DNA of 64,000 nt. Origin: a virus. Under the pieces are notes generated by a model. It did no database searches. It was not told where the DNA came from and was given only the letters and a program-made list of their open reading frames with translations. The stretch spans positions 1 to 64,000 of IMG/VR virus record IMGVR_UViG_3300045922_000122, one strand, 5' to 3'. Shown here piece after piece: positions 8,111 through 49,900 of this stretch. The first letter of the stretch is position 1; each line of letters opens with the position of its first letter. Both the position numbers and the translations under genes were made by a program.

Positions 8111-8560
8111 ATGATAAAAATAATTAATGGCAATCTAATAAGTCTTGCTAAAAATAGCGATTTTGACGTTATAATTCATGGTTGCAATTGTTTTGGAGCA
8201 GATAGCCAAAAAGGAATTTCTAAAAAAATTTTTGAAGCTTTTCCAGAAGCAAGAATTGCAGATAGTAAAACCGCTAAAGGAGATGTATATAAATTAGGAG
8301 ATTATAGTTATTGTTATATAAAATCACTTAGATTAACTATAGTTAATTTATATACACAATATGAACCTGGACTTAATTTTGAATATACTGCTTTAGGATT
8401 AGCTTTAAGAAATTTAGCAAATGCCTTAAATGGTGATGAAATAATAGGAATGCCTTTAATTGGAGCTGGTGTAAATAGAGGTAATTCTGAACAAATACTT
8501 GAAATTATTAAAACAGAGTTAGATAGTTTTAATGTTACAATAATTAAAGAAACGATATGA
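8111..8560 (+). CDS. macrodomain protein (ADP-ribose / Appr-1-p processing family)
   Basis: IINGNL, IIHGCNCF..KGI, VNLYTQ, GMPLIGAG motifs typical of phage macrodomains. Confidence 0.88.
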   Translation: MIKIINGNLISLAKNSDFDVIIHGCNCFGADSQKGISKKIFEAFPEARIADSKTAKGDVYKLGDYSYCYIKSLRLTIVNLYTQYEPGLNFEYTALGLALRNLANALNGDEIIGMPLIGAGVNRGNSEQILEIIKTELDSFNVTIIKETI

Positions 8561-33200: not shown

Positions 33201-35239
33201 ATTAAACCATCTATAATACTATCTATTGTTTTATTTCCTGTACGTTCTTCTTCTATAGGAATTGGATTTAAATACTTTTTATCTTCATTGTATTGTAAAT
33301 TTCCTATTTCAATTCCTGTAACTTCCCAATCAACTGGTTTTTTATCTTTAAAAATAGTCTTAACATTTAAGTTAATAGGTATAAGTCTAGTTTTACCTTC
33401 TTGATTAATACCATAAGCTTTTTCAAGTATGTTTCCATATTCTTTTGCTTGGTTAAGGTATTCTTCTTTTTTAGTTTTATATAAAGTATCGTATATAACT
33501 TTACCGTCTTTTTTAATAAATTCTGTAAATTTATAATCTATTATATCTCTTTTTAATTTACCATTTTCTTTATATATTACTATTAAGTCTACAGTACCAG
33601 CGACCTTTTTTTCTTTATCTCCTATAATTTGTTCTGTTAAAAATATACTTCCTTTAGGATATTTATTTACTAAAAGTTCTGCAAACATTTCAATTTTAGC
33701 AACATCTTCTATTAATATACCATCTACAACTTCTCTAGGAATGTTAATATTCTTCTCTCTCATTTCAACAGCTCTATTAATAGCTTTTTGTAGCTGTTGA
33801 TGCCCTAAAATACCATATCTTTTATTTACATCATCGTGAATACGTTGCAAATCTGACCTATTTATATCTTTATTGCCTTTGACTTTTCTTGTAACAGTAG
33901 TTTTAAATTCTACACCATCTTCGCTATAATAAAATTCTTCTTCTCCTTTAGAGTTTATTCTTGAGTTTCTAACAATCCTCCTTTCTCTTATCTTATCGGC
34001 AGCATTTTTAATTTCCCTTAAATCTTCTTCTGAATATTCACTAACTTGTAAAGCACTTAAATCGTTTTCTATATTACTACCATCTGTTATTAAATCGCTA
34101 GTATCTTCAAACAGAATTTTCATTGCTGTATAGTCAAAAGTATTAGTCTTAAATTTATTAAATAGATTAGTTAAATATTCTATTATTTTATCAAAAATAC
34201 TTTTAACTTTATTTATTTCTTTAGTAAGTCTATCAAATTGTTCTTTAGTTAAATCTGTTCTACCTGCCCTATACTGACGCATTATACTTGCAGTTATTAA
34301 TTTAACAGCAGCTTCTTCTTTAAATTCTAATTCTGTTGTATATATACCTGCATAATCTTCAAGTACTTGTTTATAAGTTTCAGTATTTTTAACTTCGCTC
34401 ATCATTTTTTGGTACAAATAAGTACCTCTCATCATCCATAAAATAACGTGAGCAGTTTCTTCTGGTATAGTATCTGCATTTCTATTTTTTTCTAAAACTT
34501 CTACTATATATCTAAGATTTCTTTTTAAATATACAGCTCTACCAAAAGCATCAGGTATAGGATTTCCTTCAGCATCTTTTATGCTATCTAATCCTTTAAC
34601 ATCTACACCTAATTTTCTAAGAAAATTTACCAATTTATACTCTAAATTAGCATCTTTTCTTGTAGGATAATTATTTTTAATTTCAGCAGTAACTCTATTA
34701 TATTCTCCAGTAACAGATACATTTATATTTAATAAAGGATATTTTGCTTCAAATTCTTTTTTAAGTCTAGCTGGACTAATTCTATAACTAAATGTACGAT
34801 TTTCACTATTAAATTGTTCTAATTGTTTTTGTGCAGCAGAACTTTTAATGCTATAACTAATATCTTCTTTTATATTTTTAGCTACATTATCCATTTCTTT
34901 AATATAAGCTTGCTTTAAACTTTCAATATCTAAAAGTTCTATTTTAGGACTGTAAGTTAATTTTATTTTACCTTTTTCAGCAGGTTCTGTAGTTACTGAA
35001 ATAGCTGGATGGTTTTTATATTTAGCTTTTTCTATACTAGCTACATCTTTATATACAAGTATACTTTTTATACCATCATTAAGTTTTTTAAGTATTTCTA
35101 CAGAAGGTATAGTATTAACATCTGTATTTGTCTTTTTGTTATAGTCTAATATTATAGCATCTATAACCAAAGAAGGTAAATTGTAATATCTTTGTATTTC
35201 TTTGTATCTAGTATGATTTCTATTATAACAAATATTCAT
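30242..35239 (-). CDS. large virion cargo/ejection protein with a degenerate zincin and a PD-(D/E)xK nuclease domain
   Basis: PEETAH (34448-34462); GILGH..EQ..AGTVDL..IIDYK; QFRNW in the C-terminal region; last gene of the crAss RNAP block. Confidence 0.75.
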   Translation of the reverse strand: MNICYNRNHTRYKEIQRYYNLPSLVIDAIILDYNKKTNTDVNTIPSVEILKKLNDGIKSILVYKDVASIEKAKYKNHPAISVTTEPAEKGKIKLTYSPKIELLDIESLKQAYIKEMDNVAKNIKEDISYSIKSSAAQKQLEQFNSENRTFSYRISPARLKKEFEAKYPLLNINVSVTGEYNRVTAEIKNNYPTRKDANLEYKLVNFLRKLGVDVKGLDSIKDAEGNPIPDAFGRAVYLKRNLRYIVEVLEKNRNADTIPEETAHVILWMMRGTYLYQKMMSEVKNTETYKQVLEDYAGIYTTELEFKEEAAVKLITASIMRQYRAGRTDLTKEQFDRLTKEINKVKSIFDKIIEYLTNLFNKFKTNTFDYTAMKILFEDTSDLITDGSNIENDLSALQVSEYSEEDLREIKNAADKIRERRIVRNSRINSKGEEEFYYSEDGVEFKTTVTRKVKGNKDINRSDLQRIHDDVNKRYGILGHQQLQKAINRAVEMREKNINIPREVVDGILIEDVAKIEMFAELLVNKYPKGSIFLTEQIIGDKEKKVAGTVDLIVIYKENGKLKRDIIDYKFTEFIKKDGKVIYDTLYKTKKEEYLNQAKEYGNILEKAYGINQEGKTRLIPINLNVKTIFKDKKPVDWEVTGIEIGNLQYNEDKKYLNPIPIEEERTGNKTIDSIIDGLIKERDKILKVPATTEEEKVKNTNRIKTLNETITNLQLTKNIDKFLNTAIYELQNMMLETNISRLAAMNSSFEFYKSINFNQYRKNIPDEHYNTIREKINRFRELIEEGKDLFEDKVKTEVKRILANENITGSDLPQADIGIWTKLFNSFSTQQHPKIQALYKLVIGSKNKTKVAIDEFNKKIESAVKKLEEYSISRGIPLKDMFNYMIKRDYKGNIILIDKYDRSIFEAIKKAREEKDYNTLKKFYNFDKEAFNKAAESNKKYWEEYFKNEPKEQKEKLVKEKVELFDKKYNAEKYSYVYLNKNSYYLRLKEDLPKSKEYETIQKTPELKEFYDLFTDFIIKSRKDLGLEYEGNFIPQIMQSFIEQLNNVGIGAISGLKDRFFNEISASYQGNYGELNTITGEIDYKIPIPYTEKLGQKASTDLGKVLSLWAMQYYNNVHMREIEDSAHLLYEALKLEKLYVTDLLGRPKKENGVYKTKSALESNTLEAFRDFMAEAIYGLNIKTDKSFTIKRKRPVYDDKGNIKRDADGNVIYEDYDFEISAFKVFNKILKYVSAKALGLNFVSASANAFGGITNALIEGAKGTFYTRSQFLHGIGAFTSGALNKDLLATLRYFDIMGDMEGFNKANNLSVSAAEKFFTYDKIYALQKGTDSLIINSILLAMLQSHGIDADGKIKHLSKLPKGSKSIKDLTEIKGDTLYIKGLTDAASNEEYLKFRRKVLEVSKTIMGVAPTYDIMLVNQYILGRALMQFRNWIPRLLSTRGGSLKYNVNTEEFEIGRYRAFKDFISDNIIKNATKTLGMIVGIGTNLDEIFENKFDLLQEENRNFLITKMGGDINNPEDIKRAKEAYVSLMKGNVKASIMELQALLSVFALVVLVKGGDDDDEELDGFRKFTIKTVTRFKDELAFFVNPISFNAIVKSPFAVTATLTDVVNFTAHFTGNTVGVLVGSEEMQKKYKPIKYIGKLFPVTSEAVRNITIWSGEEYWK

Positions 35240-35242
35240 ATT

Positions 35243-35638
35243 TTAATAGCATTTATCTAACATTTCTTTTGTTTTATCTACACCATGTACAGCAGCAAAT
35301 ATTCTAATAGCAGCTTCAGCTTCTTCTATTGTATTAACATTAAATGCTTTTAATGTTATTTCTTTAACAATGGGCGAAGATAATAATTTTTGTTTAAAAT
35401 TACTAATTAAATTTTCAATATTATTTTTATCAAATTGACTGGTTTCTGCTTTAGTAATATTATTATTTTTAACAAATTCTCTAAACCCTTCTATATCTTT
35501 TCTACCTGTTTGATTTACATAATCAGTAAATGTTTGTATAGCTTGTTGTTTTTGTTCAGGTGTTATAGTATTAACACTTTTATATAATTCTTCTAAAGAA
35601 TTATATCTTACTCCTCTATATGTTGGTTTGCAGCTCAT
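35243..35638 (-). CDS. small scaffold-like cargo protein (apparently an empty cassette)
   Basis: contains DIEGFREFVKN.NI, shared with the 5323-aa protein. Confidence 0.7.
   Translation of the reverse strand: MSCKPTYRGVRYNSLEELYKSVNTITPEQKQQAIQTFTDYVNQTGRKDIEGFREFVKNNNITKAETSQFDKNNIENLISNFKQKLLSSPIVKEITLKAFNVNTIEEAEAAIRIFAAVHGVDKTKEMLDKCY
35457..35499. repeat. 43-bp dispersed repeat, copy 1
   Basis: 40/43 identical to 38286-38328. Confidence 0.9.
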
Positions 35639-37935
35639 TGTTTTTCTGTTTTATTATTTTGTTGATTTAAAAGACCTATACCAATAGCAGGAGGAATTAT
35701 ACCAAAAGCTTTTATTTCTCCTTTACCTTCTTTAAACTTTTTAGGTATATCAAATTCATACCAAGTATTACCTTTACTATCTGTAACTTTTTTAGGTTCT
35801 ACGCCAAATAATTTTTTAATAATCTTAGGTTGTTCTGCATATTTTTTAAGAATAGTTTGATGTTCAGGAGAATAATTTACTGAAGTTTCTTTTTTTCTAT
35901 ATCCTTGCACTTTAGCAGCAGTTTCAGGAGTAGGCAATCTTACTTTATTTATATCGCCTCTTTTACCTGCATAATCTACTAACTCTTGTAAATATCTTTT
36001 CTGATGATTTTTATCTAATAGTTGTTTTTGAGTAAAGTTTTCTATTTCTGCTTTTTTCATTAAATTAAATTCTTTTTGTTTTTTAGCCTCATTAAAAGCT
36101 CCTAACTTTAAAAGTTCTTTTTCTTGATTTTCCATATTCATTAAAGCTTTTAATTCAAAATCTTTATCAAAAGATTTTGGCATAATTCTATGAGTACCTT
36201 GAAAAGCATCAGATTGTATTTGAGTTACTGTTAATACATCAGGAGTTTCCTCATCTCTTAAAAAATGAATATGACCTAATGTTTCATCTGGATTACCATG
36301 AGCATTTGAACCTCTACCAAATTTATTTTTATTTCCTAATATAAGAGTTTTGTTTTCTAATGGTAAAGATTTTGTATAATTTATAGCTGCCTCTTTATTT
36401 GGAAAATTTAAACCAAATATTCCTTCTATTTCATATTTACCCGAATTTTTATGAAAATATATTCTACTAGGGTCTTCAATAGCTTGTAAAATTTCTTTTT
36501 TATTACTAGGATATCCTATGTTCTCTAAACCATAATCACTCCTATAGTCAACAAGTCGTCTTTCTAAAGGAATAAGGTTTTCTTGTATTAATTTTCTAAA
36601 ATCATTAAAATCCATTTTTTTAGGAATGTTTTCTCCTAACCATTGTTTAACTAAAGCTACTTTTTCAGCACCTCCTGATTCTTTACCTATAATTGATAAA
36701 GCTTGTTCTATGTTTATTAATCCTGTTTTAGGTTCTACTATTTTACTAATAGGACCATCAGACATTGTAGATTTTAAATGTAGTCCAGGTAATTCTTCTA
36801 ATTGCCAAGTTTTATCTTGTTTTTCAGTAGTATTATATTTTTGTATTAAAGCTTTGTTATCTAATATTTCTTTATCAAGTTTAGAAATAGCTTCTTCTTT
36901 ACTTAATCCTTTTACAGCATCATAGGAATCATCTAACTTTTTAAATTTACCTGTTTTGTATAATTTATTCCATATACTTAATCCAACAAGATTTAAAGGG
37001 TCTGTTACAATATCTTCTACAATACCAGCTTTATTCTTCTTACCTTTAATAGCATCACTAAAAGAATAATCATCTTTATAAGCAGCTTGTACCATTTTAG
37101 AAGGTATAGTTAATGGATTTAGTATTTTAGAAGCATCACCTAATTTACTCATTATAGGATTATCAGCATACTCTTTTAACATTTCTTGCTTTTCTCTATC
37201 ACTATAATCAGGAGAATTTAAAATGTTTTTAATTGTTTGTGATGGATTTTGTTCTATTAATGAAGTCAAACCTCTTTTAGTATCTGCCCATAAAGAAGAT
37301 TGATATTTAGGATTTCTTTTAACGAATTCTTCTTCTTTACTCGTCATTGAATTTAACCATTCAGCTCTACTTAAATTTCCTTGCGGTTTATTTTTAATTA
37401 ATTGTTCAGAAACATAATCTAATGATTTTTTTTCATATTCTTCATCAAGTCTTTTTGGATAATTTGTTTCTGTATTACCAAGACTTTTTGCAAAAGGTGT
37501 TAAATATTTTTGTATATAATCATATTTAGGATTTGTTTTTTCATATTCTCTTTTATACTTTAACCAATCAGGAGCTTTATCTTCTACTACAAGTTCTTTT
37601 AAAGGAGTAGCTATATAAGTATTAGTATTTTTATCATAAGTCATTAATTTACCTGAATTATATAAATCTTTATATTCTTTAGAAGATATATCATACTCTT
37701 TAATAATACCTTTTTCATCTTTAACTTTAATTTTCTTACTAGGAATAAGACTACCATCTTCTGCATAATCAGACATTACTGGTAATGTATCTACAAAAGC
37801 ATCTACACAACTCCAGCACTTATCTTTAATCATACTTTCTACTTTTGCTCTATCTTTTTTAGGTATAATTACAATATCTCCGTATGAATTACGAATTGCT
37901 AATTCACCGCCTTCTACTTCTATTTGTTTTTTCAT
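35635..37935 (-). CDS. virion cargo protein with a polyvalent-protein-type domain (QIQSD motif)
   Basis: EVEGGE N-terminus; AH..DETLGHIHF..LTVTQIQSDAFQ..WYEFDIP; hydrophobic C-terminus. Confidence 0.7.
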   Translation of the reverse strand: MKKQIEVEGGELAIRNSYGDIVIIPKKDRAKVESMIKDKCWSCVDAFVDTLPVMSDYAEDGSLIPSKKIKVKDEKGIIKEYDISSKEYKDLYNSGKLMTYDKNTNTYIATPLKELVVEDKAPDWLKYKREYEKTNPKYDYIQKYLTPFAKSLGNTETNYPKRLDEEYEKKSLDYVSEQLIKNKPQGNLSRAEWLNSMTSKEEEFVKRNPKYQSSLWADTKRGLTSLIEQNPSQTIKNILNSPDYSDREKQEMLKEYADNPIMSKLGDASKILNPLTIPSKMVQAAYKDDYSFSDAIKGKKNKAGIVEDIVTDPLNLVGLSIWNKLYKTGKFKKLDDSYDAVKGLSKEEAISKLDKEILDNKALIQKYNTTEKQDKTWQLEELPGLHLKSTMSDGPISKIVEPKTGLINIEQALSIIGKESGGAEKVALVKQWLGENIPKKMDFNDFRKLIQENLIPLERRLVDYRSDYGLENIGYPSNKKEILQAIEDPSRIYFHKNSGKYEIEGIFGLNFPNKEAAINYTKSLPLENKTLILGNKNKFGRGSNAHGNPDETLGHIHFLRDEETPDVLTVTQIQSDAFQGTHRIMPKSFDKDFELKALMNMENQEKELLKLGAFNEAKKQKEFNLMKKAEIENFTQKQLLDKNHQKRYLQELVDYAGKRGDINKVRLPTPETAAKVQGYRKKETSVNYSPEHQTILKKYAEQPKIIKKLFGVEPKKVTDSKGNTWYEFDIPKKFKEGKGEIKAFGIIPPAIGIGLLNQQNNKTEKQ

Positions 37936-37936
37936 A

Positions 37937-40900
37937 TTATTTTAAAGTTTTTGAATTAATAACTAAACCATTTTTTGCTTTAATTTGACCTTGTTTACCA
38001 GTCATTTTAATAGTTCCATTACTTATTTCTATATCAATACCTCCTCTTTCATGGGAAGCTCCTTTAAATTCTTTAACAATTTCCCATTTACCGCCTTTTG
38101 TAAATTTATTAAAACTCATTCCATCTTTAGCACAAGGATTACCTTCTTCATCTGTATATGTTATTTCAGATTCATCAATAACATCAAACCCTAAAGTTTT
38201 ATATATTTCATTAGCTAATTGAAGATTTTTATCAAATAATTCTTCTACCTGTTGATTAATATTTTCATATTGATTATTTTCTACTATATTATCATTTTTA
38301 ACAAACTCTCTAAAACCTTCTATATCTTGTTTACTTCCTAGTATATGAACTTGTTCTGGTCTAAATACTACAAAAGATTCATCATTAGTCCCTTCTCCTG
38401 TATTAATATATACAAATCCATCAAATTTTGAATTTAATAATTTATTTTCAACTATTTTTTTATCATTAATATCAGGAATTTCTTTTCCATTAAAAGTAGA
38501 TTTATTAGGGTAATTATTTTTTACTTTAAACCAATCATCACCTTTTGGAACATCATAATCTTGATTTATTCCAGTTTCAAAACCAGCATTTTGTATATCT
38601 TTTATAAACCTTGCAGGAGATTCATCTCCAGAATCTCTTTTAAATAGAGGATTTTTAATGTTTATAATACTCAAATACAATGATTTACCTTTTTCTTCAG
38701 CATATAATTTTCTAGTTAAAGCAGCTTTTTTAGAACCAAAATGAATAAAATTATTATTTTTTGGTATATATCCATAATGATAAACAATATCTTTAACTTT
38801 ACTATCAGGAAATATAGTATCTAAATAAGCAGAATATTGTTCTAGAGTTCCAATAGAGGCTAATTCACGATATTGATTAAATAATTCTTTTACTCCTGTT
38901 TTAATCTGATTTTCTCTTTGATTAAAAATACCACTAGCTCTATTTTGAAGTTCTCTTAATCTTTCAGAACTAAAACCAACTTCACCTGTTTCTAAATCAA
39001 CTCTTTTTAGAAAAGCATCTGTAAGTATTTGTGTTAGTTCTTGTTTTTGTAGTTTAGATAATGAATTAAATTTATCCATTATCCATTTTACAAATTTAGT
39101 CCACCAATTCCAAGCTTCACCTCTTTGTTTAACAGCTTGTTCGCCAATAGACTGAACAAGAGCTTCTTCACTTCCCCACTTTCTAATAGCTTCTTGAACT
39201 ATTGGTGTGTTTCTAAACCAAGCTATATAATGGTGAGCGTATTCGTGTGGTAATGTATCTATTCTTTGGTTTAAAGCATCTATAAGAACAGTACCGGCTT
39301 TAATATTAGCTTGACCTATTATTCTATTAAGTTCATCTTTTTGAAATTGTATATTTCCAATTTTTTCAAAATATTTATATTTTCTAATAGCTTCATTAGA
39401 AATTACTTGATATAAATAAGAAGCATCAAAATTTGTAGATTTTAAAAAGTTTAAAACAGTATTATATTTATTAAATTGAGAATGAGCTTTATATCTATTT
39501 AAGATTAAATCTGAAAAAGTATCTACTTTACTTATAGTATCTAATTTATTTATAGATAGATTTTTTACAATATTGTCTTTATTACTCCAATATTGTTTTA
39601 ATAAAAATGCTGCTTGTTCATTTGATTTATATTTAGATAAAATATTATAAGGTAAGTATGACCTTAAAGTATATTGTTGATTTTTATCAAACTTTTTAAT
39701 AGCATTTTCTATACCTTCAAGTTTTACTTTTTTAGTAAAAGAAGCAAATAATCTTGAAAGCGAATAAACTTTATTTACATATTCATTTATTGATTTTAAT
39801 TTTTGTAAATACTTCTCTCTTTTATCTAATAAATCATTTATAAAATCTTCAGATTTTAAATACTTATCTAAAGATTGTAAAGATTCTTCAAAATTATTGT
39901 AAGATATACGATTTTCAAAACTATCACCTATTACTGACTTAACTAAAGAACGTAAACTAAAAGTACTTGTTTTTTTAGGTAGATATTCCCTAGTTTTTAA
40001 TTTTAACTTGTTTTCATAATATTTAATAACTTGTTTTTCTTCTTTTGAAGATAAAGGCTTTTCTTTAACTTCTTTTTTTCTGTTTTCTATTTCTTTTATA
40101 TATTCTTCTATATAATTTTTTTCTTCATATTCAGAATTTTTTATTTCATTTTCTAAAAGATTAATATATTCTTTTGGATTACTAATATTTTGTTCAATGT
40201 ATTCTCTAAACGGAGGCGTTGCATCCGCACCTGCCCATCCTTGAGCTTCTAATATACGATATATAAATCTACCTGCTTCTTTTGGACTTAGATTATAGTT
40301 AGCTTGAATATCATCTAATGTTAAAGGAATAAGTCTTGGTTTATATGTTTCTTTAACTTTTACATGTGAACCTAATCCAAAAAATTCATTAGATATAAAC
40401 TCATGTTGAGGCATATCATAAATATAAATAGCATTATTTATAGCTACAGCAGAAACATAATGAGTTATATCAAAATTTCCAAGAGGTGATTTTACAAAAA
40501 CACTTAATTGGTCTCCATTAGGAGATGAAGGGTAAGGATTTAAACCTATTTTTTTTAAATATTCTGTAGATTCTTTTGCTGTAAAATTACAAATACCGTT
40601 AGGACATAAAGTATCTTGGTTTTCAAATAATTCAAATTTATTTATTTCATCTGGTATTGTTTGATTGAAAACATTTTTATCTGTTTCCCATGTAGGATTA
40701 TTAGTAATATTTAATCCTAGTTCAGGATAAAGAGATTGTATTTTTTCTTGTAATTCTTTTACTAAGTTTAAATCTAAAGGATAATAATTATTATTACTAA
40801 TTTGATTAAATGTTTGATTATTACTTTTATTTATATATAAACCAACGCCGTTAAACGGTTGATATTCTAATCCTTTATCTAATAAATATTTTCTAATAGC

Positions 40901-43900
40901 ACCTTCTCCAACAGAATTATGATTAGAATTTGCATCATTTTCGTTATCAGCGATAAAAAATTTAACTCCTTGAGATAATGCTAAATCAATAGCTTTTTTA
41001 GTTTTTTCTAAATTTTCAGCTTGATTAGGTCTACCTTTACCATTTACAGAAATCATTATAGTTTCACCAGCTTTAAATGAAGTTCTAGTACCACCAAAAG
41101 CATTGGCATATTTATATGTACTTGTACCTGGTTCTCCATAAGCTATAATACCATCTGCATAATCAGCTTTTATTTGGTCTTTTGGAAATTTAGCATTAAT
41201 ATTTATAGGATTTGATTTTTTAATTGGTAAATTAGTAAATTGTTTATTAGAATAAATCTCAGAAGCTGTTTGTCTTTGTCTATTGGGTTCACTTAACAAA
41301 TTTTGATTATTACCTACTTCATTAATTGTATTAGTAGAATTAATACTACCAGAATTTAAATTATTAATATCAGTAGTCCATATTTTACCTTTTATATTAG
41401 CTATAACAGGTAAAGGTATTTCTTGATAAATATAAAATCTACCAGAGCCATCTAATCCAATTCTTTCATAAAGTCTGTAAATATCATTATTGTCTGTTGT
41501 TTTTATAAAAGGAGCTGCTTTATAATCATTTACTCTTAATATTAATTTAGAAGCTTTACTATAACTAACATAAGGAACTATATCTGAATTTCTCCAGTTG
41601 TTTATGTAAAAATTTCTTCTGAATATATTAAAAGTATTAATATGTGCATTAATATCTATTTTATCTAATATAGTTTTAACTACCTTTCTAGAAATTACTG
41701 CTGGAAGTATTTGATTTATACTAAATTGCGTAAAGTTATAACCAGATTGAAGCATAGAAAACTTAATTAAATCTGTTGCTAAGCTTAAATCTTTACCTCC
41801 TCTATTAAACATATCTTCTATAGCAGAAGCTATTTCTTGCATAACATAAGCATTAAAGTTTCTATTAGATAGTCTTATATTATCTATACCATCTCCATCT
41901 GGATTTATCATAGGTATTAAATAATCAAGTCTACTATCTTTAACTTCTTCTTGATATTTTTTAAGTCTTTTAGGTAAACTTTCATCTCCTTTAAATAAAG
42001 ATTGCCAATTAGCAAATTTTTCTCCAGATGTTAATATAGATATTTTAAAATCATTCTTTAAAAGTTTAGATACTTTATTTCTATTTTTAGATTTAAAAAC
42101 TCTTTCTAAAAGTTCTTCTCTAAAAGAATCTAGACTATAAACAACTTCATCAAATTGTTCTGTAAAAATAAGGTCTTTAAATGTAAATAAAGAAGCATTA
42201 TATACTTTTTTAAACGAATCTAAAAATGTAAATTGTAAATATCTATCTAGATTTTTAAAATTACCACTAGTTAAAATTTCTCTATTTGTTTTTAATAAAT
42301 CTTTTACAGCATCTGTACTTCCTAACCCTCTAGTATCAAAAGAAAATGCACTTCGCATTTGACTTATTTTAAAAGCAACTTTTTTATAGGTTAAGAAGTC
42401 TTCTAATATATTTTGTTGTACTTGTCTATTAAATTGTTGTAATTGCTCTAATGTAAGTTTATTGTATTTATAATCACCATATTTAGTTTTTAATTGTTCT
42501 AGTTCATCTTCTTTAGTAGAAATCATAGTAGATATTGATTTATGTCTACTTATTATTTCTACATATTCTCTTATTATAGGTTGGCTTATAAAGTATAATG
42601 CTGTTTGAGAAGGTAATCCTGCTGAAACTAAGAATAGAAAAACATCTGCTGTTTCAGCATTTAGATTAAACCTTTCCATAACTTCTGGGTTCTTTACAAC
42701 GTCTACTGCTAAAGAAACACCTTGTCCTAATACATTAGATATTTTTTCATTAGTAGGATTACCATTTTCATCTACTGTATATATATTACCTAGACTGTAA
42801 TATCCATTTGAGTCTTTTTCTATTCCTTTAAAATTTATAGAAAAGTTTAAAACTTCATCATCAAGTTTAAGATTACTATTTATTCTAATATCAGCTATTT
42901 GAAATAAAGGATGACTTTTGTTAGCTAAAGCAAATATACCAACTAATCCTTTACCATACCAAAACATATTTCTAAGAGTAGAAATTGTTTTGAAATTAAG
43001 TAAATCTGTAAAGCTATAATTATTAATAACTCTATCAGGATAAAACTCTTGTAATTTCTTTTCTATAACTAAAGATAAATCTTTATATTTACTAATACTG
43101 TTAGGTTCAAGTTTATCTTTAGGACTTCTACTTTCTAATAAAGCTATTGTATATTCCAGTATTTTATTTTGCAAAGCTTTTTCTCTAAGTTCTGGATTAT
43201 TTAGATTTTCTTCATTAGGTTCTACATAAATATATTCATATTTTTTAAGATTTTTATTTTCTTCATTTTTTCGTCTATTAAAATTAATTAAAGCTAATTT
43301 AAGATTAGATATAGCTGTTTTAGTATCTTCACTATATGATTTATATGCTTTAGATTCTTTAAGTTTACCTAATTCACCTTTATCACTTTTTAAACTATAT
43401 GAATTTAAAGCTTGTAATAATTCTGTAAAGGTATAATTACTAGATTTTAATAAATTTTTTATAGCAATTCTATCATCTTCATCTGTATAATTAAAATACT
43501 CATAACTATTTTCAAAATCTTCTAAATCTATTTTATCTACTTTTTTTCTTATAAAATTAGGAAAATAAATATTAATTTTATCAAAGTCAAAGTCAGAACC
43601 TACTTTTTTAGTAATACCGCTAGGAACAATACAAGTATTACCGTAAGACTTAGGTAAAAATCCTTTAACAACTATACTTTCTAAAGAGTTAAGTTGCTCT
43701 GTAGGAATACGAAAGCCATACATTTTTAAATTATTAGGGTCTATCTTATTTATAGTTTGACCTTCAGAAAGAATGTTACCAAAATAATAAGGTAAATATA
43801 TTTCCATAGTTTTACCATTTTCATAAAACTTTAATCCATTAGATTTATATTTACCATTAATTCTTTCTCTTACTTTTAATTCTGTTCCTGTATCTGGAAA

Positions 43901-46900
43901 TTGAACTAAAGATTTACCAAATCTTTTTTGATTAACTGCTTTATTTTCAAATATAGAATATAGAATTGGTTCTAATTTGTTATAATTAACTAATAAATCT
44001 AAATATACAGGTTTTCCTTTTTCAAGACCTTCTAATTCCAATATAAGAGCTTCTATTTGATTATCAGGTATTTCTCCTCTTGAATTAATTTCTTCTATTA
44101 ATAATTTCTTTAAAGCTTCTCCACCATCAGAAAATACAGCTCTACCATTTTCATATTTTAAATTTAATTCTTGTTTTACTTTATCTAAATAATAATCTGT
44201 TAAATCAGATTGTGCTTTAAATAAATCTCTTACAGCTTCTTCTATAGTTAGAACTTTATTTTTAATAGTAATAGTACCTTTTTTAAATGTTCCTTTGTCT
44301 GCTAAATCTGTAGCAATGATAGCAGCTTCTTGCGTACCTCTAGAAGTTTCTTTTGCATCTTTAGGAGAATTTTCTACTTGTATTCCTATACTTTCTATTG
44401 GTATTTCTGTAACAAGTTCATTGTCTATATCTGCTATTTCTCCAGATTCATTATAAAGAGGTTGACCTTGATATTTACCTTTTTCTCCTTTTTTTAATTT
44501 AAACCCTATTTTATTTCCACTTCTAAATACACCAATATCAATTTGGTTATTCCTCATTTTTTCCAATAGAGAGTAAAGAGCAGGGAAAGCTTCTGAATCC
44601 TCTTTAATAGCTTTTATTAAAGTAGGACTTAATCTAAGTAAAGCAAATTTAACATAAAAAGGTTTTAATTCTTCTTCACTAGAATTTCCATATATAACAG
44701 GTTTAATACTAGGTAATATAGAATTAGCTTCTTCTCCTTTACTTTCTAATTCCCAAGCTTTATTCATTTCTTCAGACCAACTATCTGACCTGAATAATAA
44801 ATCTCTATATAAATCATCTAATATAATACCGAAAGAATCAGTTTCATCTATTTCATCGTAACCTTTTACACCTAAAATACTTAATTCTTCTTTTACTGAA
44901 ACTATGTCTTCAAATGTAACTACTTTTACTTTTAATCTGTCTTCTCCTGTTTTACCATCTACTCTAGGCATATAAGTATCCATATATTCATTTATAACAG
45001 GAGTATTAATAACTTGTTTAGTAGTAGCAACAGCACCTGCATACCTTTTAAACATATCTATAAAACTAGCTGTTAAATCTGGTATATTACCTTTATATTT
45101 AGTAATATAATAAGCAGGATTTCCAAAGAGTACTTTTGTTTGTTCTATTGCACTTATAATATAATTAGTAGTAAAAGCAGTAACTACTTTTTCTATTTGT
45201 TCTTCTGTTAATTCTTTTTCTTTACCTTCTTTTATATTTAATACCTCTCTTAAAATTTCTTTACTTACATTAATTTTATTAGATTTAATTATTCCATTAT
45301 TTTTAAATAAGTTATAATTAGATGTAATTTGAAATTCTACATAATCTTTTATCTTATTTTTTACAACTTCTTCACTATCAATTATATTTATAGTATTACC
45401 ATTTTTATCTCTAATATTTTTAAATATAACTAAATCGTTTAAAAATTGTTCTCCATTTACTATAATTTTATCTTTATTTTTCTTTTGTTTTATAATTTCT
45501 AATTCAGTTAAATAATATTTATATAACTGGTCTACAGTTTGCTTTACCATATCAAACTTACTATAACCAGATATATTTATAAAAAAGTTATCTAAACTAA
45601 ATGTTCTAAAACTTTTCTTATCTCCTGTAATTAAAAAGCTAAAGTTTTTAGATAGTATATTATTAAGTTCTACAATTAGAAAATCTTTAAAACTTAATTG
45701 TGAAACATCTTGACCTGTTTCAGCAGCTTTACTCATACCATTAGTAATACCTACTCTTATGGCATTTTTCTTTTTTGAAATTCTTTCTAATATTATACTA
45801 TCTCTAGCGTATATATTAGTATTTTTATTTAAAAAGTTAGGTATTATCCCTGAAGAAAGTTTATATACTAATCTAGATATGTAATTATGTAGAGTAATAG
45901 AATAAATCATTTCTCCTTTTGAAGTAACAGCTACGTTTTCTACAACATCTTCATTAAAAGAAGATTCTAATTCTACTAATCTCTTTAATCTACTTAAAGA
46001 AGTATTAGTATAGAAATCTTTACTTCCTAATTTATCTAAAGTTATCTTTTCTGATTTTAAATCGTTTATTAATAGAGTTATACTTTTTAAATCTTCTATT
46101 CCATTTTCAGAATTTAAATAATTTTTAACAGCTTCTTTATTTTCAAATTTTATACCTAGTTTTTCTAGAAAATCTAATTGTTGAGTTGTAGTAGAAGCTA
46201 AATATTCTTTTCCTTTTTTAGTTAATCTTATTGTTCCATTTTCTCTATAAACTAAATCATTATTTATAGTTAATAGATTATTTAACCACTTTCTTAAAGT
46301 AATATCTTGAGTTTTAGTGGTATTTGTATTAACTCTATTTACAGTACCGTCTCTATTTACTATTAAATTTTCAAAGTTTTCTTTATGTTTAGAAAAAGAA
46401 TTGTAAAAAGAAACTATAAATTGTGCACTATAATAATCTCCATTTTTAGCTCTATCTTCTAATAAATTTAATAGATTATAAAGTTTTCTAAAGCCTGTAT
46501 CTTTACTATTTAAAAGCCTACCTTTAATTTCTTCATAACTAATAGAATTAGCTAATTTATTCATTAGCTTATTTATAAATTTATCATATTCATAAGTATC
46601 AGCAAAAGAAGCTAAAACTAATCTTAAAGGAGTTTTTATTTTAGATTTTTGATTTATTAAATACGCTTCTTTATAACTTTCATTAGATACTTCTTTACTA
46701 ATAACCTCATCTTTACCTAAAGATAAATCTGATTCTTCTTCTGAAATGTCATCTTCTTCTATATCTTCCTCACTTGGTTGTGTATAACCTAAAGCTTTTA
46801 TAAAATCTTTATGAATAACTACTGCTTGTTGTAATATTTCTTTCTTTCTTTCATAAGGAAGTTCTTCAAATTTTTGTGTTAACCCATCTTCTTCTAACAT

Positions 46901-49900
46901 TTCTTTAAATGAAGCGTTATATATAGGTCTTATTATTTCCTTAAAATCATCAGAATTAAAAAGATAAAGAATTTTTATATCATTAGCTAATAATTTAGAT
47001 ATTACTTTATTATGTATTCTTTTAGCTACAGCAGCATTATTAATATTTCTAACAGAATCTAATTTAGAAAACATTAAATTTTCTCTTACTTTTTTAGCAT
47101 TTTTAAATTCTCCTCTTTCTATTCTTGCATAAAAATCTTCTATTTTTTTATTAGTATTTAAAGAAAAAGCAGCTTTTATTAAATTTAATATTTTTCTAAA
47201 TAGACTTTCTTGTTTTTTAGACTTAGCTTTTTTGTTCAGCATATAAATAGCAAACCCTTCAGCTAGTCCTTCTTCTGCTTCTTTATCAGTAGCATCAGGT
47301 TTATTATTTATTAATCTCCATTCATCCCATAATTCTTTTTGTTCTTCTTTAGATATTAATAAATTTGATACATAGTGAAACGCTTCGTGGTATTCTGTTC
47401 CTTGTTCTCCCATCGTAGATAGAAGTATTTTACCATTACTTAAAATTCTACCACTAGCTATACCTTCAATAAGATTATCTACTCTTTCATAAGATTCTCT
47501 ATCTGTTATATCTATACCTAAAGTTTCAACCAACCAATTTTCAGCTTCTTCTATATTTATAGTATCTAAAATACCTGTATAAATTCTAAAAGCAGAATTG
47601 ATAGCATCATCAATAGCTTTATCAATATCAGAAAAATTATTAGAATTAGTTTTAGGCTTAGCTTCAGGATTTATATTAGGGTCATTTAAATCAACTTTAG
47701 GAGCTTCTCCAAAAAACCCTTCTAAACTTGCTTCATTTTTTATATTAGATTCTTGAGCTTTTTTCTCTAAATTTTGTTCAAATTCTTTAGTAATTTTAAA
47801 ACTATATTTAGGTTTTCCTAAAATAGGTAAAATATTATCTTCTATTTCTTTAATAATTTGTTCTACAGATTTGGTTTCCATATTATTTCCACCAAAATCT
47901 AAATTTATCTTATTTTCAAATTCATCTACTTCAGGAATCCTTTCTTTAGTTTCTATTTTAAATTTTCTATTTTTAACATCTACTATAACATTAAAATTAT
48001 TATCTTCTCTAATTGCAGTTATTTTAGTAACTTTAGATTTATTATCTTCTGTTTGAGGAATAGTATTATTTATGGTTTCTTTACTTTCTCCCGATAAGGT
48101 AGAATCAGGAGAAAGTGGATTAGGTTCAAATGTAGCATACCCTTGTTGAAATCTTCTAACTTTATCGTTTATAATATCATCTTCAGTAGCATCTTGCTTA
48201 ATCCTTAAAAATGTAGTCAATGGAATATCTTCTATTTGCCTAGTAGTACCATTAGGCATTAATGGAGAAGTTAAATAATGTTTATAACTATCCCATTCTG
48301 TTTCTTCAAAACTATAACCATTCCATAAAACTGATTTATACTTAGGTAAGTTTTCTTCTTTATTTTTATTATTAAGTAGAGCTAAAATTCTATTATTTAC
48401 ATTTAGTACTTTTTTCTGTAAAGTTTCAATTATTTCATCTTTATTTTCTTCTAAAGTATCTAAAGTTATAACTTTATTTTGTAATACTAAAACATCTTCT
48501 TTTATATCAAAAGGAATTACAGAATTTTCAGATAAATAAACTATATTTTCTATATAAGTAATTAAATTTTTATAACTTAAATTTAAACTTTCAGTTGTCT
48601 TTGCCTCTTTTGCTTTTTCACTAGCTGTATTAGGTAAAGTACTTCTATAGTTTTGTAAGTAAGCTTTAACTAATTGATATACAGTTTCTGCTTCTTGTCT
48701 ATTTATTTTTCTAGTAATAGCAGGTATCCAAGTATTTCCAAGTTTAAATAACACTCTACCAGCAGGATATACTATTCTTCTTTCGCCAGCAGTTATAGTT
48801 CTATTTGTTTTACCTTTTTCAGATTTCTCTCCTATAGATACTAATATATTTAACTTATCAGCTATATCACTTTCTTTTTCTACAATAGTACCTACTACAG
48901 AATTTTTAGTTTTATTACTTATAGGTTTACCAGGATTAAAAGATGTTATATTAAAAAAGAAGTTCTTATTACTATTCTTTTTAATAATATCTCTAATTTG
49001 TTTATGTACTTCTAGAGCATTACTTAATATTTCAGCTTTAGTTTCTTTGCTAAGGTCTTTGTTAAAAAAGCTATATCTAGGAGAATTAGTATCTTTAAAA
49101 TTTAAAGATAAATCTCTAAGTTTAGCATATACAACACCTCCATAAGCTATAACTGGTTTGTTTTCAGAATCTACTAAAACAAGTCTTATATCATCTTCAT
49201 TATGATTTACTCCTTCTATTTTAGGGTCATTATAAACAGAATTAGGCTTTCCTAAACCATAAACTTCATCGTTTATAGTAACAGACATGAATTTATAGTT
49301 TTTAGGGTCTTCATTTATTCCTATATTCTCTAACCATCTAAAAAATCTACGTTCTTCTATAACTGGATTAGAACTTTCACCAGGTTTACCATAATCACCT
49401 CTTTCACTATCTCTACCTGTAGAAACAGCCCAACCGTATAAATCTACATAAGTAGCTTGATATAAGTATGAATCATTTTCTAAATCCTCGTCTAATTCAT
49501 TATCTAAAGTCTCTATAACTCCTTTATTGGCAACACTAAATTTCTTTTGTACTTCTTTTTCAGTTTTAGCTTTTTCTTCTACTAAATTTTTATATTCTTT
49601 TTTCAAAGAATCTGCTTGTACTTTAAAGCTAGATAAACTAGACAATTTCTTTAAAAGAGAGTTATAATAACCTAACTTACTTTTTTCTTCAAGTATAGCA
49701 ACTTTTCTTCCTTCTAAAAAGTTTATCTTACCAAAATAATCATAACTTAATTCAAATAAAGCTTCTATATCTTTTTCTAAATCTTTATCTAATATTTTAT
49801 TACTTGTAAAATAAGCATGAAGTCCATCTATAGTTTTTTCAGGTAATAGTCCTTCAGGTATTCTTTTAATAATATCAGATAATAAAGAGTTAAATCCTTT

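What the first reader, a model, noticed from the sequence alone, without database searches (positions are those of the whole stretch)
37937..41300. Modular effector array fused to the C-terminus of the virion RNA polymerase
Seen: after the RNAP core come about 1100 extra residues in discrete modules. (i) A Rossmann/SLOG-like domain (KDQIKAD..GTST..ISVNG..ADN..NSVGE, ~41190-40860). (ii) A papain/transglutaminase-like domain (GICNF..THYV..IYD, ~40640-40300). (iii) A zincin (IIGQANI..DTLPHEYAHHYI..EEALV, HExxH at 39233-39247). (iv) An ART-like domain (VYH..HFGS..INIKNPL..FDGFVY..GE..ESFVVF.PEQ, ~38900-38300). Established: crAss RNAP is packaged and injected, and phage polyvalent proteins combine zincin, ART and SLOG domains. 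Inference: the RNAP serves as a carrier that injects a swappable enzyme set before any phage gene is expressed, for host takeover or anti-defence.
Basis: partly seen in the sequence, partly recalled or inferred. Interest (0 to 1): 0.85.

Follow-up and report, generated by a model that had tools for sequence, protein, structure and literature searches.

The report
Enzyme-module tail on crAss-like virion RNA polymerase
A crAss-like phage from a hot-spring or microbial-mat sample encodes a 5,323-residue RNA polymerase protein whose last ~1,190 residues are a string of mobile enzyme-like modules that its closest relatives lack, resembling the "polyvalent" proteins that other phages inject into their hosts.

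Summary
One ORF (window 37937-53908, minus strand, 5,323 aa) is a crAss-like virion RNA polymerase (RNAP) polyprotein. About 1,190 residues follow the end of the conserved core.

The tail is modular and mobile. A search of 1.84 billion proteins found 1,531 matches, in proteins of all sizes and with the modules in different orders. The tail is lineage-specific. In 103 giant RNAP relatives the C-terminal extension has a median of 202 aa. The two collinear closest relatives (52% and 43% identity) stop about 140-155 aa after the core.

Domain labels:
- ART: supported. It is homologous to proteins that pass Pfam's ART-PolyVal threshold, though it scores below threshold itself and has His where the family has Tyr.
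- Zincin: supported by motifs only (invariant HExxH plus downstream Glu).
- "Papain/transglutaminase-like": an invariant Cys-His-Asp, but no family match.
- "SLOG-like": no support from any search.

Other crAss-like RNAPs carry different enzyme tails, for example helicase plus AlkB. The carrier idea is therefore plausible and looks general. Injection and effector activity remain untested. This is a new variant of the known polyvalent-protein theme. The scan had already noted this same stretch of this genome in other readings (e1-6123289, e1-6123283).

The parts
37937..53908 (-). Giant ORF, 5,323 aa (P0001): crAss-like virion RNAP polyprotein. It contains only 4 Cys.
   Evidence: An identical protein lies on a 39,846-nt Logan contig of a run that may be the source sample.
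47375..47389 (-). First HExxH (HEAFH, residues 2174-2178) in the N-terminal half. This is the conserved zincin-like site of the upstream (gp65-like) part of the polyprotein.
   Evidence: H, E, H and the downstream EE.LAE are invariant in 8 aligned relatives. A zincin-like protease in the gp65 orthologue is stated in passages of the Drobysheva preprint.
43580..43594 (-). DFDFD catalytic motif of the RNAP (residues 3439-3443).
   Evidence: conserved RIPTxxLNS...GSDFDxDK context in other giant proteins; invariant D, D, F, D.
41339..45209 (-). RNAP core region used for relatives (residues 2900 to ~4190). Profile homology to relatives ends at about residues 4112-4142. By eye, similarity to P0155 runs to ~4190 (ANIKGKIW).
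40808..41242 (-). S1: ~145-aa domain of unknown family (residues 4223-4367). Conserved KDQxKAxYAD, G.G..ST, ISVNG, FIADN and GEG motifs. It ends with FNQ.
   Evidence: No Pfam or PDB match. Also found in the C-terminal extensions of RNAP relatives P0224 and P0184, and in P0077, P0086 and P0131.
40661..40747 (-). Conserved linker (residues 4388-4416, ...LYPELGLNITNNPTWETDKNVFNQ) ending in FNQ.
   Evidence: 46 of 58 'S2' matches are to this linker only. 45 of 89 FNQ sites in the matched proteins have YP[ED][IVL] within 30 aa upstream.
40223..40660 (-). S2 core: Cys-His-Asp domain (residues 4417-4562). C4440 = 40589-40591, H4483 = 40460-40462, D4498 = 40415-40417.
   Evidence: C, H and D invariant in 13 of 13 sequences. 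No family match.
39374..40222 (-). S3: ~280-aa block of unknown fold that follows S2 in all 12 proteins that carry the S2 core.
38900..39373 (-). S4: HExxH (HEYAH 39233-39247) zincin-like domain (residues 4846-5003), followed by a linker ending ...ASGIFNQ.
38288..38866 (-). S5: ART-PolyVal-like domain (residues ~5015-5207). H5044, H5056 at the family's Tyr position, D5163. It ends HILGSKQDIEGFREFVKN.
   Evidence: (Pfam match at 38348-38734)
37940..38263 (-). S6: C-terminal ~108-aa module (…NPCAKDG…GASHERGGIDI…KAKNGLVI). In relatives it usually lies at the very C-terminus.
35635..37935 (-). Next gene (766 aa, P0154). It starts 1 nt after the RNAP stop. Its N-terminal ~350 aa recur directly after an S6 module in another crAss-like locus, and are fused to S6 in P0121.
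35243..35638 (-). 131-aa ORF (P0153). Its N-terminal half is the common inter-module linker (…TPEQKQQ…GRKDIEGFREFVKN). It ends …DKCY, the C-terminal Cys motif that the RNAP itself lacks.
38286..38334 (.). One copy of a 49-nt direct repeat (90% identical). The other copy is at 35457-35505. Both encode KDIEGFREFVKN.
30242..35239 (-). 1,665-aa gene. It is the conserved neighbour that follows the RNAP core closely in relatives, but here lies ~6.3 kb from the core end.

Best explanation
The ORF is the virion RNA polymerase polyprotein of a crAss-like phage. Its 3' end has acquired a ~3.6-kb block of mobile modules of the kind found in phage 'polyvalent' proteins.

The order after the core is:
- S1, an unknown domain.
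- A linker ending in FNQ.
- S2, a Cys-His-Asp domain, probably a thiol hydrolase.
- S3, of unknown fold.
- S4, a zincin-like HExxH domain.
- A linker ending in FNQ.
- S5, an ART-PolyVal-type ADP-ribosyltransferase-like domain.
- S6.

Shown here:
- The modules exist and each has its own relatives.
- They are shuffled among many proteins.
- This phage's closest RNAP relatives lack them.
- The slot between the RNAP core and the conserved 1,665-aa downstream gene varies among crAss-like phages and here holds ~6 kb of extra DNA.

Inferred:
- The tail travels with the RNAP as capsid cargo and enters the cell with it. crAss RNAPs are virion proteins according to passages of PMC10172136 and the Drobysheva preprint.
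- One or both peptidase-like modules cut the polyprotein at the conserved linkers.
- The ART-like module, and perhaps S1 and S2, then act on host targets before any phage gene is expressed.
For: RNAP identity:
- tblastn of residues 2600-4150 hit 125 phage records; the 30 listed rows and the organism and host tallies point to crAss-like phages, and several hits are annotated as putative RNAP.
- The DFDFD context is conserved.
- CrAss_Ring_1 scores 71.9 bits at 62475-63374.

Modularity:
- 1,531 proteins matched at E<=1e-3 in 1.84 billion.
- Among the 149 best, S4 is in 130, S5 in 27, S6 in 22, S3 in 14, S1 in 8 and the S2 core in 12, at varied positions and orders.

Variable tail:
- Of 103 relatives whose core alignment reaches residue 4070 or beyond, the C-terminal extension ranges 119-1850 aa with a median of 202. 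Only 8 exceed 700 aa. Ours is ~1,193 aa.
- P0155 (52% identity) and P0156 (43%) are collinear from the N-terminus through the core and end 154 and 137 aa after it.
- By phmmer, 0 of 119 relatives have S1, S2, S3, S5 or S6. By profile, 2 of 119 (P0224, P0184) have S1 in their C-terminal extension.

Slot:
- In 9 of 9 loci where both landmarks were detectable, the homologue of the 1,665-aa gene begins 448-2982 nt after the core end. Here the distance is ~6.3 kb.
- In L002 the S2-S3 unit is a separate 580-aa gene in that slot.

Tail modules have nearer relatives elsewhere (64-70% identity) than the core has (52%).

Domain evidence:
- ART: S5 matches P0021 at E 3.5e-16 over 188 residues. That stretch of P0021 scores 53.5 bits on ART-PolyVal against a cut-off of 31.2.
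- Zincin: HEYAHHY and GSEE..GEQ are invariant or nearly so in 19 sequences.
- S2: Cys, His and Asp are invariant in 13 of 13 sequences, in a protein with only 4 Cys in 5,323 residues.

Other crAss RNAPs carry other enzymes.

Linkers: FNQ occurs 4 times in the tail and 0 times in the first 4,149 residues. None of 2,000 shuffles reached 4. All four sit at module edges.
Against:
- S5 itself scores 20.4 bits, under the cut-off of 31.2. It has His where the family's strand-2 Tyr aligns, so it may be inactive or have another chemistry.
- S4 does not match MPTase-PolyVal. Only 9 of 19 family members give weak SprT-like hits, best E 0.013.
- S1 and S2 match no Pfam, NCBIfam or PDB family.
- Nothing here shows that the tail is packaged, injected, cleaved or active.
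- Unlike 112 of 119 relatives, this RNAP lacks a Cys in its last 8 residues, so its C-terminus is atypical.
- The whole stretch is bridged only by assemblies of what may be a single sample.
- The closest relatives' genomic neighbourhoods could not be fetched, so their versions of the modules could be separate genes.
Confidence: 0.6

Rival explanations
1. The tail belongs to the phage's own ejection and maturation machinery and is not an anti-host effector set. On this reading the zincin-like and Cys-His-Asp modules cut the polyprotein, or open the cell wall for ejection. S6 plus the next gene form part of the ejection apparatus. The ART-like module is degenerate.
For: - The Drobysheva preprint (passage seen) proposes that the zincin-like domain of the neighbouring protein activates the RNAP or digests peptidoglycan.
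- Iyer et al. 2017 (section 8 read) favour autoproteolysis for many such peptidases.
- The FNQ linkers at module edges fit cleavage sites.
- S6 and the N-terminus of the 766-aa gene recur together, fused or split.
- S5 has His at the family's Tyr position and scores below threshold.
Against: - The closest relatives do without the whole tail, so it is not needed for basic ejection or RNAP maturation.
- A conserved zincin-like site already exists upstream at residue 2174.
- Other RNAPs carry helicase, AlkB-like, NADAR and ART domains. These are not ejection functions. The family names for accessions listed only are recalled.
Confidence: 0.25
2. The tail is a recently captured but decaying passenger: inactive remnants of a polyvalent protein fused by a recombination accident, with no function now.
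For: - S5 scores below threshold and has a changed catalytic position.
- The RNAP lacks the usual C-terminal Cys, while a small ORF downstream carries one.
- A 49-nt direct repeat brackets S6, the 766-aa gene and the start of the 131-aa ORF, which looks like a recombination scar.
Against: - About 3.6 kb stays open in a 25% G+C genome where stops are frequent.
- The motifs HExxH...E and Cys-His-Asp are intact and invariant across relatives.
- The modules are 64-70% identical to homologues elsewhere over their full lengths.
Confidence: 0.07
3. The fusion is an assembly chimera of two phages that share linker sequences.
For: - The linkers are conserved among many proteins and could mislead an assembler.
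- All bridging evidence comes from runs of what may be one sample.
Against: - A 39,846-nt Logan contig, made separately from the IMG/VR record, covers 37500-42500 with 0 differences at even depth 12.8.
- G+C and strand skews are continuous across the junction.
- The reading frame is unbroken.
- A second run of the same sample has exact 151-160-nt pieces from both the tail and the core, although none bridges the junction.
Confidence: 0.03

Closest known systems
Polyvalent proteins built on the N4-type virion RNAP (Iyer et al. 2017, PMC5512222; passages and section 8 read)
   Same: Both are giant virion-packaged RNAPs fused in one polypeptide to a zincin-like HExxH peptidase, and in some cases to an ART of the same ART-PolyVal type. 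The peptidase is the hub domain shared by many architectures. The proposed roles are the same: self-processing and early host modification.
   Different: - The polymerase here is the unrelated two-barrel DFDxD crAss-type enzyme, not the T7-like N4 enzyme.
- The HExxH domain does not match the MPTase-PolyVal model.
- The Cys-His-Asp domain is not among the four peptidase superfamilies that paper lists.
- crAss phages are not mentioned in that text (0 occurrences).
Giant RNAP polyproteins of crAss-like phages (phi14:2 gp65-gp66-gp67; crAss001 gp47/gp49/gp50)
   Same: - The DFDxD motif, with sequence similarity of the core to annotated crAss RNAPs.
- An upstream zincin-like site.
- Fusion of neighbouring cargo proteins into one huge ORF, noted in the Drobysheva preprint.
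- Sizes up to ~6,000 aa, noted in a review (PMC10136315, passages).
- Virion location shown for crAss001 by mass spectrometry (PMC10172136, passages).
   Different: The ~1,190-aa C-terminal array (S1-S6) is not the conserved downstream partner. That partner is the separate 1,665-aa gene. The tail finds only 1 record among 50,697 phage genomes, and only for S4. No paper found in searches describes ART-type or similar modules on crAss RNAPs. The figures and supplements of Yutin 2018 and 2021 were not visible.
T4 Alt and MuF-fused head-packaged effectors
   Same: An ADP-ribosyltransferase carried in the capsid and delivered with the DNA, to act before phage genes are expressed (background from passages).
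   Different: Alt is a separate head protein of another ART clade. Here the ART-like domain is one module of an RNAP polyprotein, its activity is unknown, and its strand-2 Tyr position is His.

Membership tests
crAss-like (Crassvirales) virion RNAP | DxDxD (DFDxD) metal-binding motif in a conserved context | tested here: met
   DFDFD at residues 3439-3443. The RIPTxxLNS…GSDFDxDK context is shared with other giant proteins. It is invariant in 8 aligned relatives.
crAss-like (Crassvirales) virion RNAP | Sequence similarity to RNAPs of recognised crAss-like phages, and a crAss structural gene context | tested here: met
   125 phage records matched; the 30 listed rows and the organism and host tallies point to crAss-like phages. 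The best is 26.8% identity, E 6e-32, and several are annotated as putative RNAP. CrAss_Ring_1 scores 71.9 bits against a cut-off of 27 at 62475-63374.
crAss-like (Crassvirales) virion RNAP | Two double-psi beta-barrels in one chain; presence in virions | not testable with these tools
No proteomics is available.
ART-PolyVal (PF18760) | Score at or above Pfam's gathering cut-off (31.2 bits) | tested here: not met
   20.4 bits, E 9.4e-4. 20 bits at 38348-38734, the only match in the genome.
ART-PolyVal (PF18760) | Homology to proteins that pass the cut-off over the same stretch | tested here: met
   S5 against P0021 gives E 3.5e-16 (residues 830-1000). P0021 residues 848-978 score 53.5 bits. P0016 scores 37.0 and P0020 37.3.
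ART-PolyVal (PF18760) | His (strand 1), Tyr (strand 2), Asp (strand 5), as described in Iyer 2017 (passage) | tested here: inconclusive
   In the alignment, VYH is kept (H5044) and the Asp column is kept (D5163, at least 80% conserved). 'IHFGS' stands where other members have I/F-Y-F. The strand assignment is by alignment only.
Zincin-like metallopeptidase (MPTase of polyvalent proteins, PF18818) | HExxH plus a Glu on the next helix | tested here: met
   HEYAHHY is invariant and GSEE/GEQ are at least 90% conserved in 19 sequences.
Zincin-like metallopeptidase (MPTase of polyvalent proteins, PF18818) | Match to the family model | tested here: not met
   No match to PF18818 anywhere in the genome at E<=10. 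Weak SprT-like hits in 9 of 19 members, best E 0.013. hhalign to the upstream zincin-like region gives P 0.014 over 73 columns, against 0.18-0.45 over 8-13 columns for 3 control regions.
Papain-like / transglutaminase-like thiol hydrolases | Conserved Cys, His and Asp in that order | tested here: met
   C4440, H4483 and D4498 are invariant in 13 of 13 sequences. The spacing is 43 and 15 residues.
Papain-like / transglutaminase-like thiol hydrolases | Match to a family model or a solved structure | tested here: not met
   Transglut_core PF01841 none. DUF553 PF04473 none. NLPC_P60 PF00877 matched only elsewhere in the genome (83332-83427, 14.7 bits). No shared weak Pfam hit among the 13 members (5 families, each in 1-2 members, none a thiol hydrolase). 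The best PDB profile hit has E 0.2. The Atlas lead scored 0.80, which is chance level.
Papain-like / transglutaminase-like thiol hydrolases | Fold: Cys at a helix N-terminus packed against a beta-sheet bearing His and Asp | not testable with these tools
SLOG superfamily | Match to a SLOG family model | tested here: not met
   cpYpsA PF12694 none. Lysine_decarbox/LOG PF03641 none. No shared weak Pfam hit among the 7 members (5 families, each in 1 member). Nothing relevant in the PDB profile search. That these two families belong to SLOG is recalled, not checked.
SLOG superfamily | Rossmann-like fold with Gly-rich nucleotide-binding loops | not testable with these tools
The alternating conserved hydrophobic and Gly motifs are compatible with an alpha/beta domain, but this is only inference.
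Polyvalent protein (sense of Iyer et al. 2017) | Several unrelated enzymatic domains in one polypeptide, encoded with virion/late genes, with the peptidase as hub | tested here: met
   At least S2, S4 and S5 plus the RNAP lie in one ORF within the structural/cargo block. S4 is the hub, present in 130 of 149 matched proteins.

The most novel reading that the evidence does not exclude
In crAss-like phages the junction between the RNAP core and the next conserved cargo gene may be a dedicated exchange slot. Short conserved linkers would serve both as recombination joints for swapping enzyme modules between phages and as cleavage sites that free the modules after injection. The linkers in question are …LYPEIxLNITNNPxWxxxxNxFNQ, …ASGxFNQ and …GSKxDIEGFxEFV. 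A Cys within the last few residues would mark each independently packaged cargo polypeptide. On this reading the virion RNAP is the chassis of a programmable injected toolkit that includes at least two enzyme families not yet described (S1 and the Cys-His-Asp domain S2).
Probability: 0.2. Interest if true: 0.8.

Novelty: new variant of a known kind. Interest (0 to 1): 0.55.

Why it matters
crAss-like phages dominate the human gut virome and are widespread elsewhere, yet how they take over their hosts is largely unknown.

If their injected RNAP also carries exchangeable enzymes, these tails are a ready list of candidate early host-takeover or anti-defence factors. Domains seen here and in relatives include ART-like, peptidase-like, helicase, AlkB-like and NADAR. 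Two of the modules (S1 and S2) belong to no described family.

It would also show that the polyvalent-protein strategy arose independently on two unrelated virion polymerases, the N4 type and the crAss type.

Two further leads could help read cargo proteomes. One is the C-terminal Cys, seen in 112 of 119 relatives against a Cys frequency of 0.1%. The other is the set of FNQ linkers. Both give testable handles on cargo packaging and processing.

Tried and rejected
- Whole-protein Pfam and PHROG scans gave nothing useful. NCBIfam on the six segments gave nothing.
- phmmer against PDB sequences gave nothing for either half. Profile searches of S1, S2 and S4 against PDB gave no significant hit. 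The S2 hit to 9yoy 'HC12' had E 0.2 and was not followed.
- tblastn of the tail against 50,697 phage records found 1 record, for S4 only.
- The search for related loci with the tail found 1 locus, L002. With the core and with P0155 it found none in viral contigs.
- The metagenome scan with alignment A6 returned 80 distant loci but not the contigs of the closest relatives P0155 and P0156. What lies after their RNAP genes therefore stays unknown.
- The search for homologous proteins with S1 found only 2 short proteins.
- A combined S1+S2 alignment was abandoned. With whole proteins it was noisy. With typed segments MAFFT misplaced the second half of S1.
- The idea that the 131-aa ORF is the displaced ancestral C-terminus of the RNAP was tested and is not supported by sequence. 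BLASTP to P0155 and P0156 was not significant. phmmer with its C-terminal half gave a best E of 1.8. Only the shared C-terminal Cys pattern remains.
- The early count 'S2 in 57 of 149' was wrong as a count of the Cys-His-Asp domain. 46 of the 58 S2 matches are to the upstream linker alone, and the domain itself is in 12 proteins.
- I recalled PF10686 as a SLOG family. The tool names it YAcAr, so that test is void.
- ESM Atlas: P0098 gave no usable hit. P0011 gave only sub-0.9 leads.
- Sequencing runs: no RNA holder is listed. Parts of the stretch have no cover in X3, X4 and X5, and no second sample bridges the core-tail junction.
- Papers: Yutin et al. 2018 is not held. Figures and supplements of Yutin 2021 and the alignments and supplements of Iyer 2017 were not visible and may already show some of these domains.
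- The searches for crAss RNAP plus polyvalent, ART or zincin and for a C-terminal cysteine signal found no description. This is not proof that none exists.

Full report
**What is there.** The window has ~25% G+C, and its minus-strand block 30-64 kb carries large genes. One ORF, 37937-53908 (-), encodes 5,323 residues without a stop. The genome is an IMG/VR virus record of 85,621 bases, estimated 96% complete. HEYAH lies exactly at 39233-39247.

**The protein is a crAss-like RNA polymerase (RNAP).**
- A tblastn search with residues 2600-4150 hit 125 of 50,697 phage records. The 30 listed rows and the organism and host tallies point to crAss-like phages of Bacteroides, Flavobacterium, Cellulophaga or uncultured gut origin. 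Several hits lie under genes annotated 'putative RNA polymerase' or 'putative RNAP catalytic subunit'.
- The DFDFD motif at 3439-3443 sits in a context (RIPTxxLNS…GSDFDxDK) shared by other giant proteins. It is invariant in an alignment of 8 relatives.
- A neighbouring gene (62475-63374) matches Pfam CrAss_Ring_1 at 71.9 bits.
- Whole-protein Pfam, PHROG and PDB sequence searches were empty. This fits the known extreme divergence of these enzymes (PMC7886860, passages).
- An upstream HEAFH at 2174, with EE.LAE downstream, is invariant in the 8 relatives. It corresponds to the zincin-like site described for the gp65-like partner (Drobysheva preprint, passage).

**Where the core ends, and the tail in relatives.**
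- A search with residues 2900-4150 among proteins of 2,927-9,316 aa found 120 relatives.
- In 103 of 119 (excluding self) the alignment reaches query residue 4070 or beyond. Their C-terminal extensions range 119-1,850 aa with a median of 202. Eight exceed 700 aa and 4 exceed 1,000 aa. This protein has ~1,193 aa.
- The two closest, P0155 (52% identity, 4,270 aa) and P0156 (43%, 4,158 aa), are collinear with ours from the N-terminus through the core. They end 154 and 137 residues after it.
- None of the 119 has S1, S2, S3, S5 or S6 by phmmer, and one has S4, near its N-terminus. A profile of S1 finds it in the C-terminal extensions of two distant RNAPs, P0224 (E 4.7e-23) and P0184 (E 1.9e-13).

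**The slot.**
- In 9 of 9 loci where both landmarks could be found by tblastn, the homologue of our 1,665-aa gene (30242-35239) begins 448-2,982 nt after the RNAP core end.
- Here the distance from the core end (~41542) to that gene is ~6.3 kb. It is filled by the tail, a 766-aa gene and a 131-aa ORF.
- In L002 the S2-S3 unit (45% identical) is a separate 580-aa gene in this slot. It lies between a 201-aa gene and the homologue of the 1,665-aa gene.

**The modules.**
- A full HMMER scan of 1.84 billion representative proteins with the 1,174-residue tail gave 1,531 hits at E<=1e-3.
- Mapping six segments onto the 149 best gave S4 in 130, S5 in 27, S6 in 22, S3 in 14 and S1 in 8. These lie in proteins of 139 to 5,760 aa and at varied positions.
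- The 57 proteins with 'S2' matches turned out mostly to match only a ~35-residue linker that precedes S2. The Cys-His-Asp domain itself is in 12 proteins, always followed by S3.
- Several hits are themselves giant DFDxD proteins in which S4, S5 or S1 lie before the polymerase.
- Tail modules have relatives at 64-70% identity, nearer than the core's best relative at 52%. This fits acquisition by exchange, although the two searches used different databases.

**S5 (ART).**
- S5 alone scores 20.4 bits on ART-PolyVal against a cut-off of 31.2. It is the only such match in the genome.
- It is clearly homologous to domains that pass. P0021 matches at E 3.5e-16 over the stretch that scores 53.5 bits. 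P0016 scores 37.0 and P0020 37.3.
- In the alignment the strand-1 His and the conserved Asp are kept. 'IHFGS' stands where others have I/F-Y-F.
- Membership of the wider family is therefore supported. Canonical activity is uncertain.

**S4 (zincin).** HEYAHHY is invariant and GSEE…GEQ at least 90% conserved in 19 sequences. Nine of 19 members give weak SprT-like hits. MPTase-PolyVal does not match. hhalign to the upstream zincin-like region aligns the strand, HExxH and EExL in register with P 0.014, against 0.18-0.45 for three control regions. That is suggestive only.

**S2.** Cys4440, His4483 and Asp4498 are invariant in 13 of 13 sequences, and the whole 5,323-aa protein has only 4 Cys. No Pfam, NCBIfam or PDB family matches. 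Iyer et al. list four peptidase superfamilies in polyvalent proteins (section 8 read), and papain-like is not among them.

**S1.** This is a well-conserved ~145-aa domain with no match anywhere. The SLOG label is unsupported.

**Linkers.**
- FNQ occurs 4 times in the tail, at residues 4367, 4414, 4995 and 5010. All are at module edges. It does not occur in the first 4,149 residues, and none of 2,000 shuffles reached 4.
- In the 149 matched proteins there are 89 FNQ sites in 67 proteins. Forty-five follow the conserved …LYPEIxLNITNNP…FNQ linker, and others follow …ASGxFNQ after S4. The sequence after FNQ differs between proteins.
- These are plausible recombination joints, cleavage sites or both. 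That is inference.

**Beyond the ORF.**
- S6 usually lies at the very C-terminus of its proteins.
- In L054, another giant crAss-type ORF ends in an S6 module and is followed after about a nucleotide by a gene 30% identical (E 2e-33) to the first ~350 residues of our 766-aa gene. In P0121 the two parts are fused. The array therefore functionally continues into the next gene.
- A 49-nt direct repeat (90% identical; 38286-38334 and 35457-35505) encodes KDIEGFREFVKN in both the RNAP tail and the 131-aa ORF.
- The N-terminal half of that ORF is the common linker (E 1.6e-13 to P0121). Its C-terminal half has no significant relative.

**A C-terminal cysteine.** 112 of 119 RNAP relatives and 101 of 149 module proteins have a Cys in their last 8 residues, although Cys makes up 0.1% of these proteins. 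The chance expectation is 0.8%. Our RNAP lacks it, while the 131-aa ORF ends …DKCY. In crAss002, gp32 (2,020 aa, one Cys) ends …SFVCS, while gp33 does not end in Cys. I found no description of this.

**Other RNAP tails.**
- P0210 has an SF1 helicase (AAA_30, 86.5 bits) and a 2OG-Fe(II) oxygenase of the AlkB type (53.4 bits) after its core. P0268 has ART-PolyVal (61.2 bits) and DUF7831 before it.
- Precomputed Pfam accessions on other relatives include PF12694, PF08719, PF13532, PF00300 and PF01966. Their names beyond those printed are recalled.
- Enzyme cargo on crAss RNAP polyproteins thus seems widespread and varied.

**Physical continuity.** A 39,846-nt Logan contig from a hot-spring or microbial-mat run covers 37500-42500 with no difference. 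That run may be the source sample. A second run of the same sample has exact short pieces of both tail and core but does not bridge them.

**Comparison with what is known.** The closest concept is the polyvalent protein built on the N4 virion RNAP, with a zincin peptidase and sometimes an ART (PMC5512222). The closest family context is the crAss RNAP polyprotein with its zincin-like partner (Drobysheva preprint). Virion location is shown for crAss001 (PMC10172136, passages). Four things appear new:
- The same strategy on the unrelated crAss polymerase.
- The specific array of modules.
- Two undescribed domains, S1 and S2.
- The evidence for a variable slot.

I found no paper describing this. 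However, Yutin 2018 is not held, and figures and supplements could not be seen.

**Verdict.** This is a new variant of a known kind, of moderate interest. The linker/slot idea and the C-terminal Cys give it upside.

Noticed in passing
C-termini of P0155-P0273 and P0003-P0151; window 35243-35248 (…KCY of the 131-aa ORF); L083 gp32: A Cys within the last 8 residues occurs in 112 of 119 crAss-type RNAP giants and 101 of 149 module proteins, although Cys is 0.1% of their residues. This RNAP lacks it; the 131-aa ORF downstream ends DKCY. crAss002 gp32 has one Cys in 2,020 aa, second from the end. It may be a cargo or processing signal.
   Followed up: partly
window residues 4367, 4414, 4995, 5010 of the ORF (about 40805-40807, 40664-40666, 38921-38923, 38876-38878): FNQ ends conserved linkers at module edges: 4 in the tail and 0 in the other 4,149 residues. 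There are 89 sites in 67 of 149 related proteins, and different domains follow them. These are candidate cleavage or recombination joints.
   Followed up: partly
window 38286-38334 and 35457-35505: A 49-nt direct repeat, 90% identical, encodes KDIEGFREFVKN in the RNAP tail and in the 131-aa ORF. Recombination between the copies would remove S6, the 766-aa gene and the start of the small ORF.
   Followed up: partly
window 37933-37940; L054 15656-15890: The RNAP stop and the next gene's ATG are 1 nt apart. The same S6-end/next-gene arrangement recurs in L054, where it lies only ~60 residues after the DFDxD motif. S6 and the next gene's N-terminal part are fused in P0121. This pair behaves as one unit that is sometimes split.
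   Followed up: partly
P0210, P0268 and other proteins: Other crAss-type RNAP giants carry an SF1 helicase plus an AlkB-like oxygenase after the core (P0210), or ART-PolyVal plus DUF7831 before it (P0268). Others list cpYpsA, NADAR-type and further accessions.
   Followed up: partly
window 30242-35239: The 1,665-aa gene has homologues right after the RNAP in 9 other crAss-like loci (24% identity, E 6e-58 in L002). It is probably the conserved RNAP-associated cargo partner. It has no Pfam or PHROG match.
   Followed up: partly
genome 83332-83427 (outside the window): A weak sub-threshold NLPC_P60 match (14.7 bits) in an open frame of 144 aa (the 140-aa ORF 83173-83595). It may be the phage's cell-wall hydrolase.
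   Followed up: no
window 8557-10947 and 21456-23333: An RIIA-like gene (phrog_612, E 1.7e-45) and a DNA polymerase (phrog_17, E 5.6e-97) lie on the plus-strand replication block.
   Followed up: no
whole stretch 37500-42500: Public runs that hold this DNA are labelled hot springs or microbial mat metagenomes. This is an unusual habitat for a crAss-like phage, but the holders may be the source sample only.
   Followed up: no
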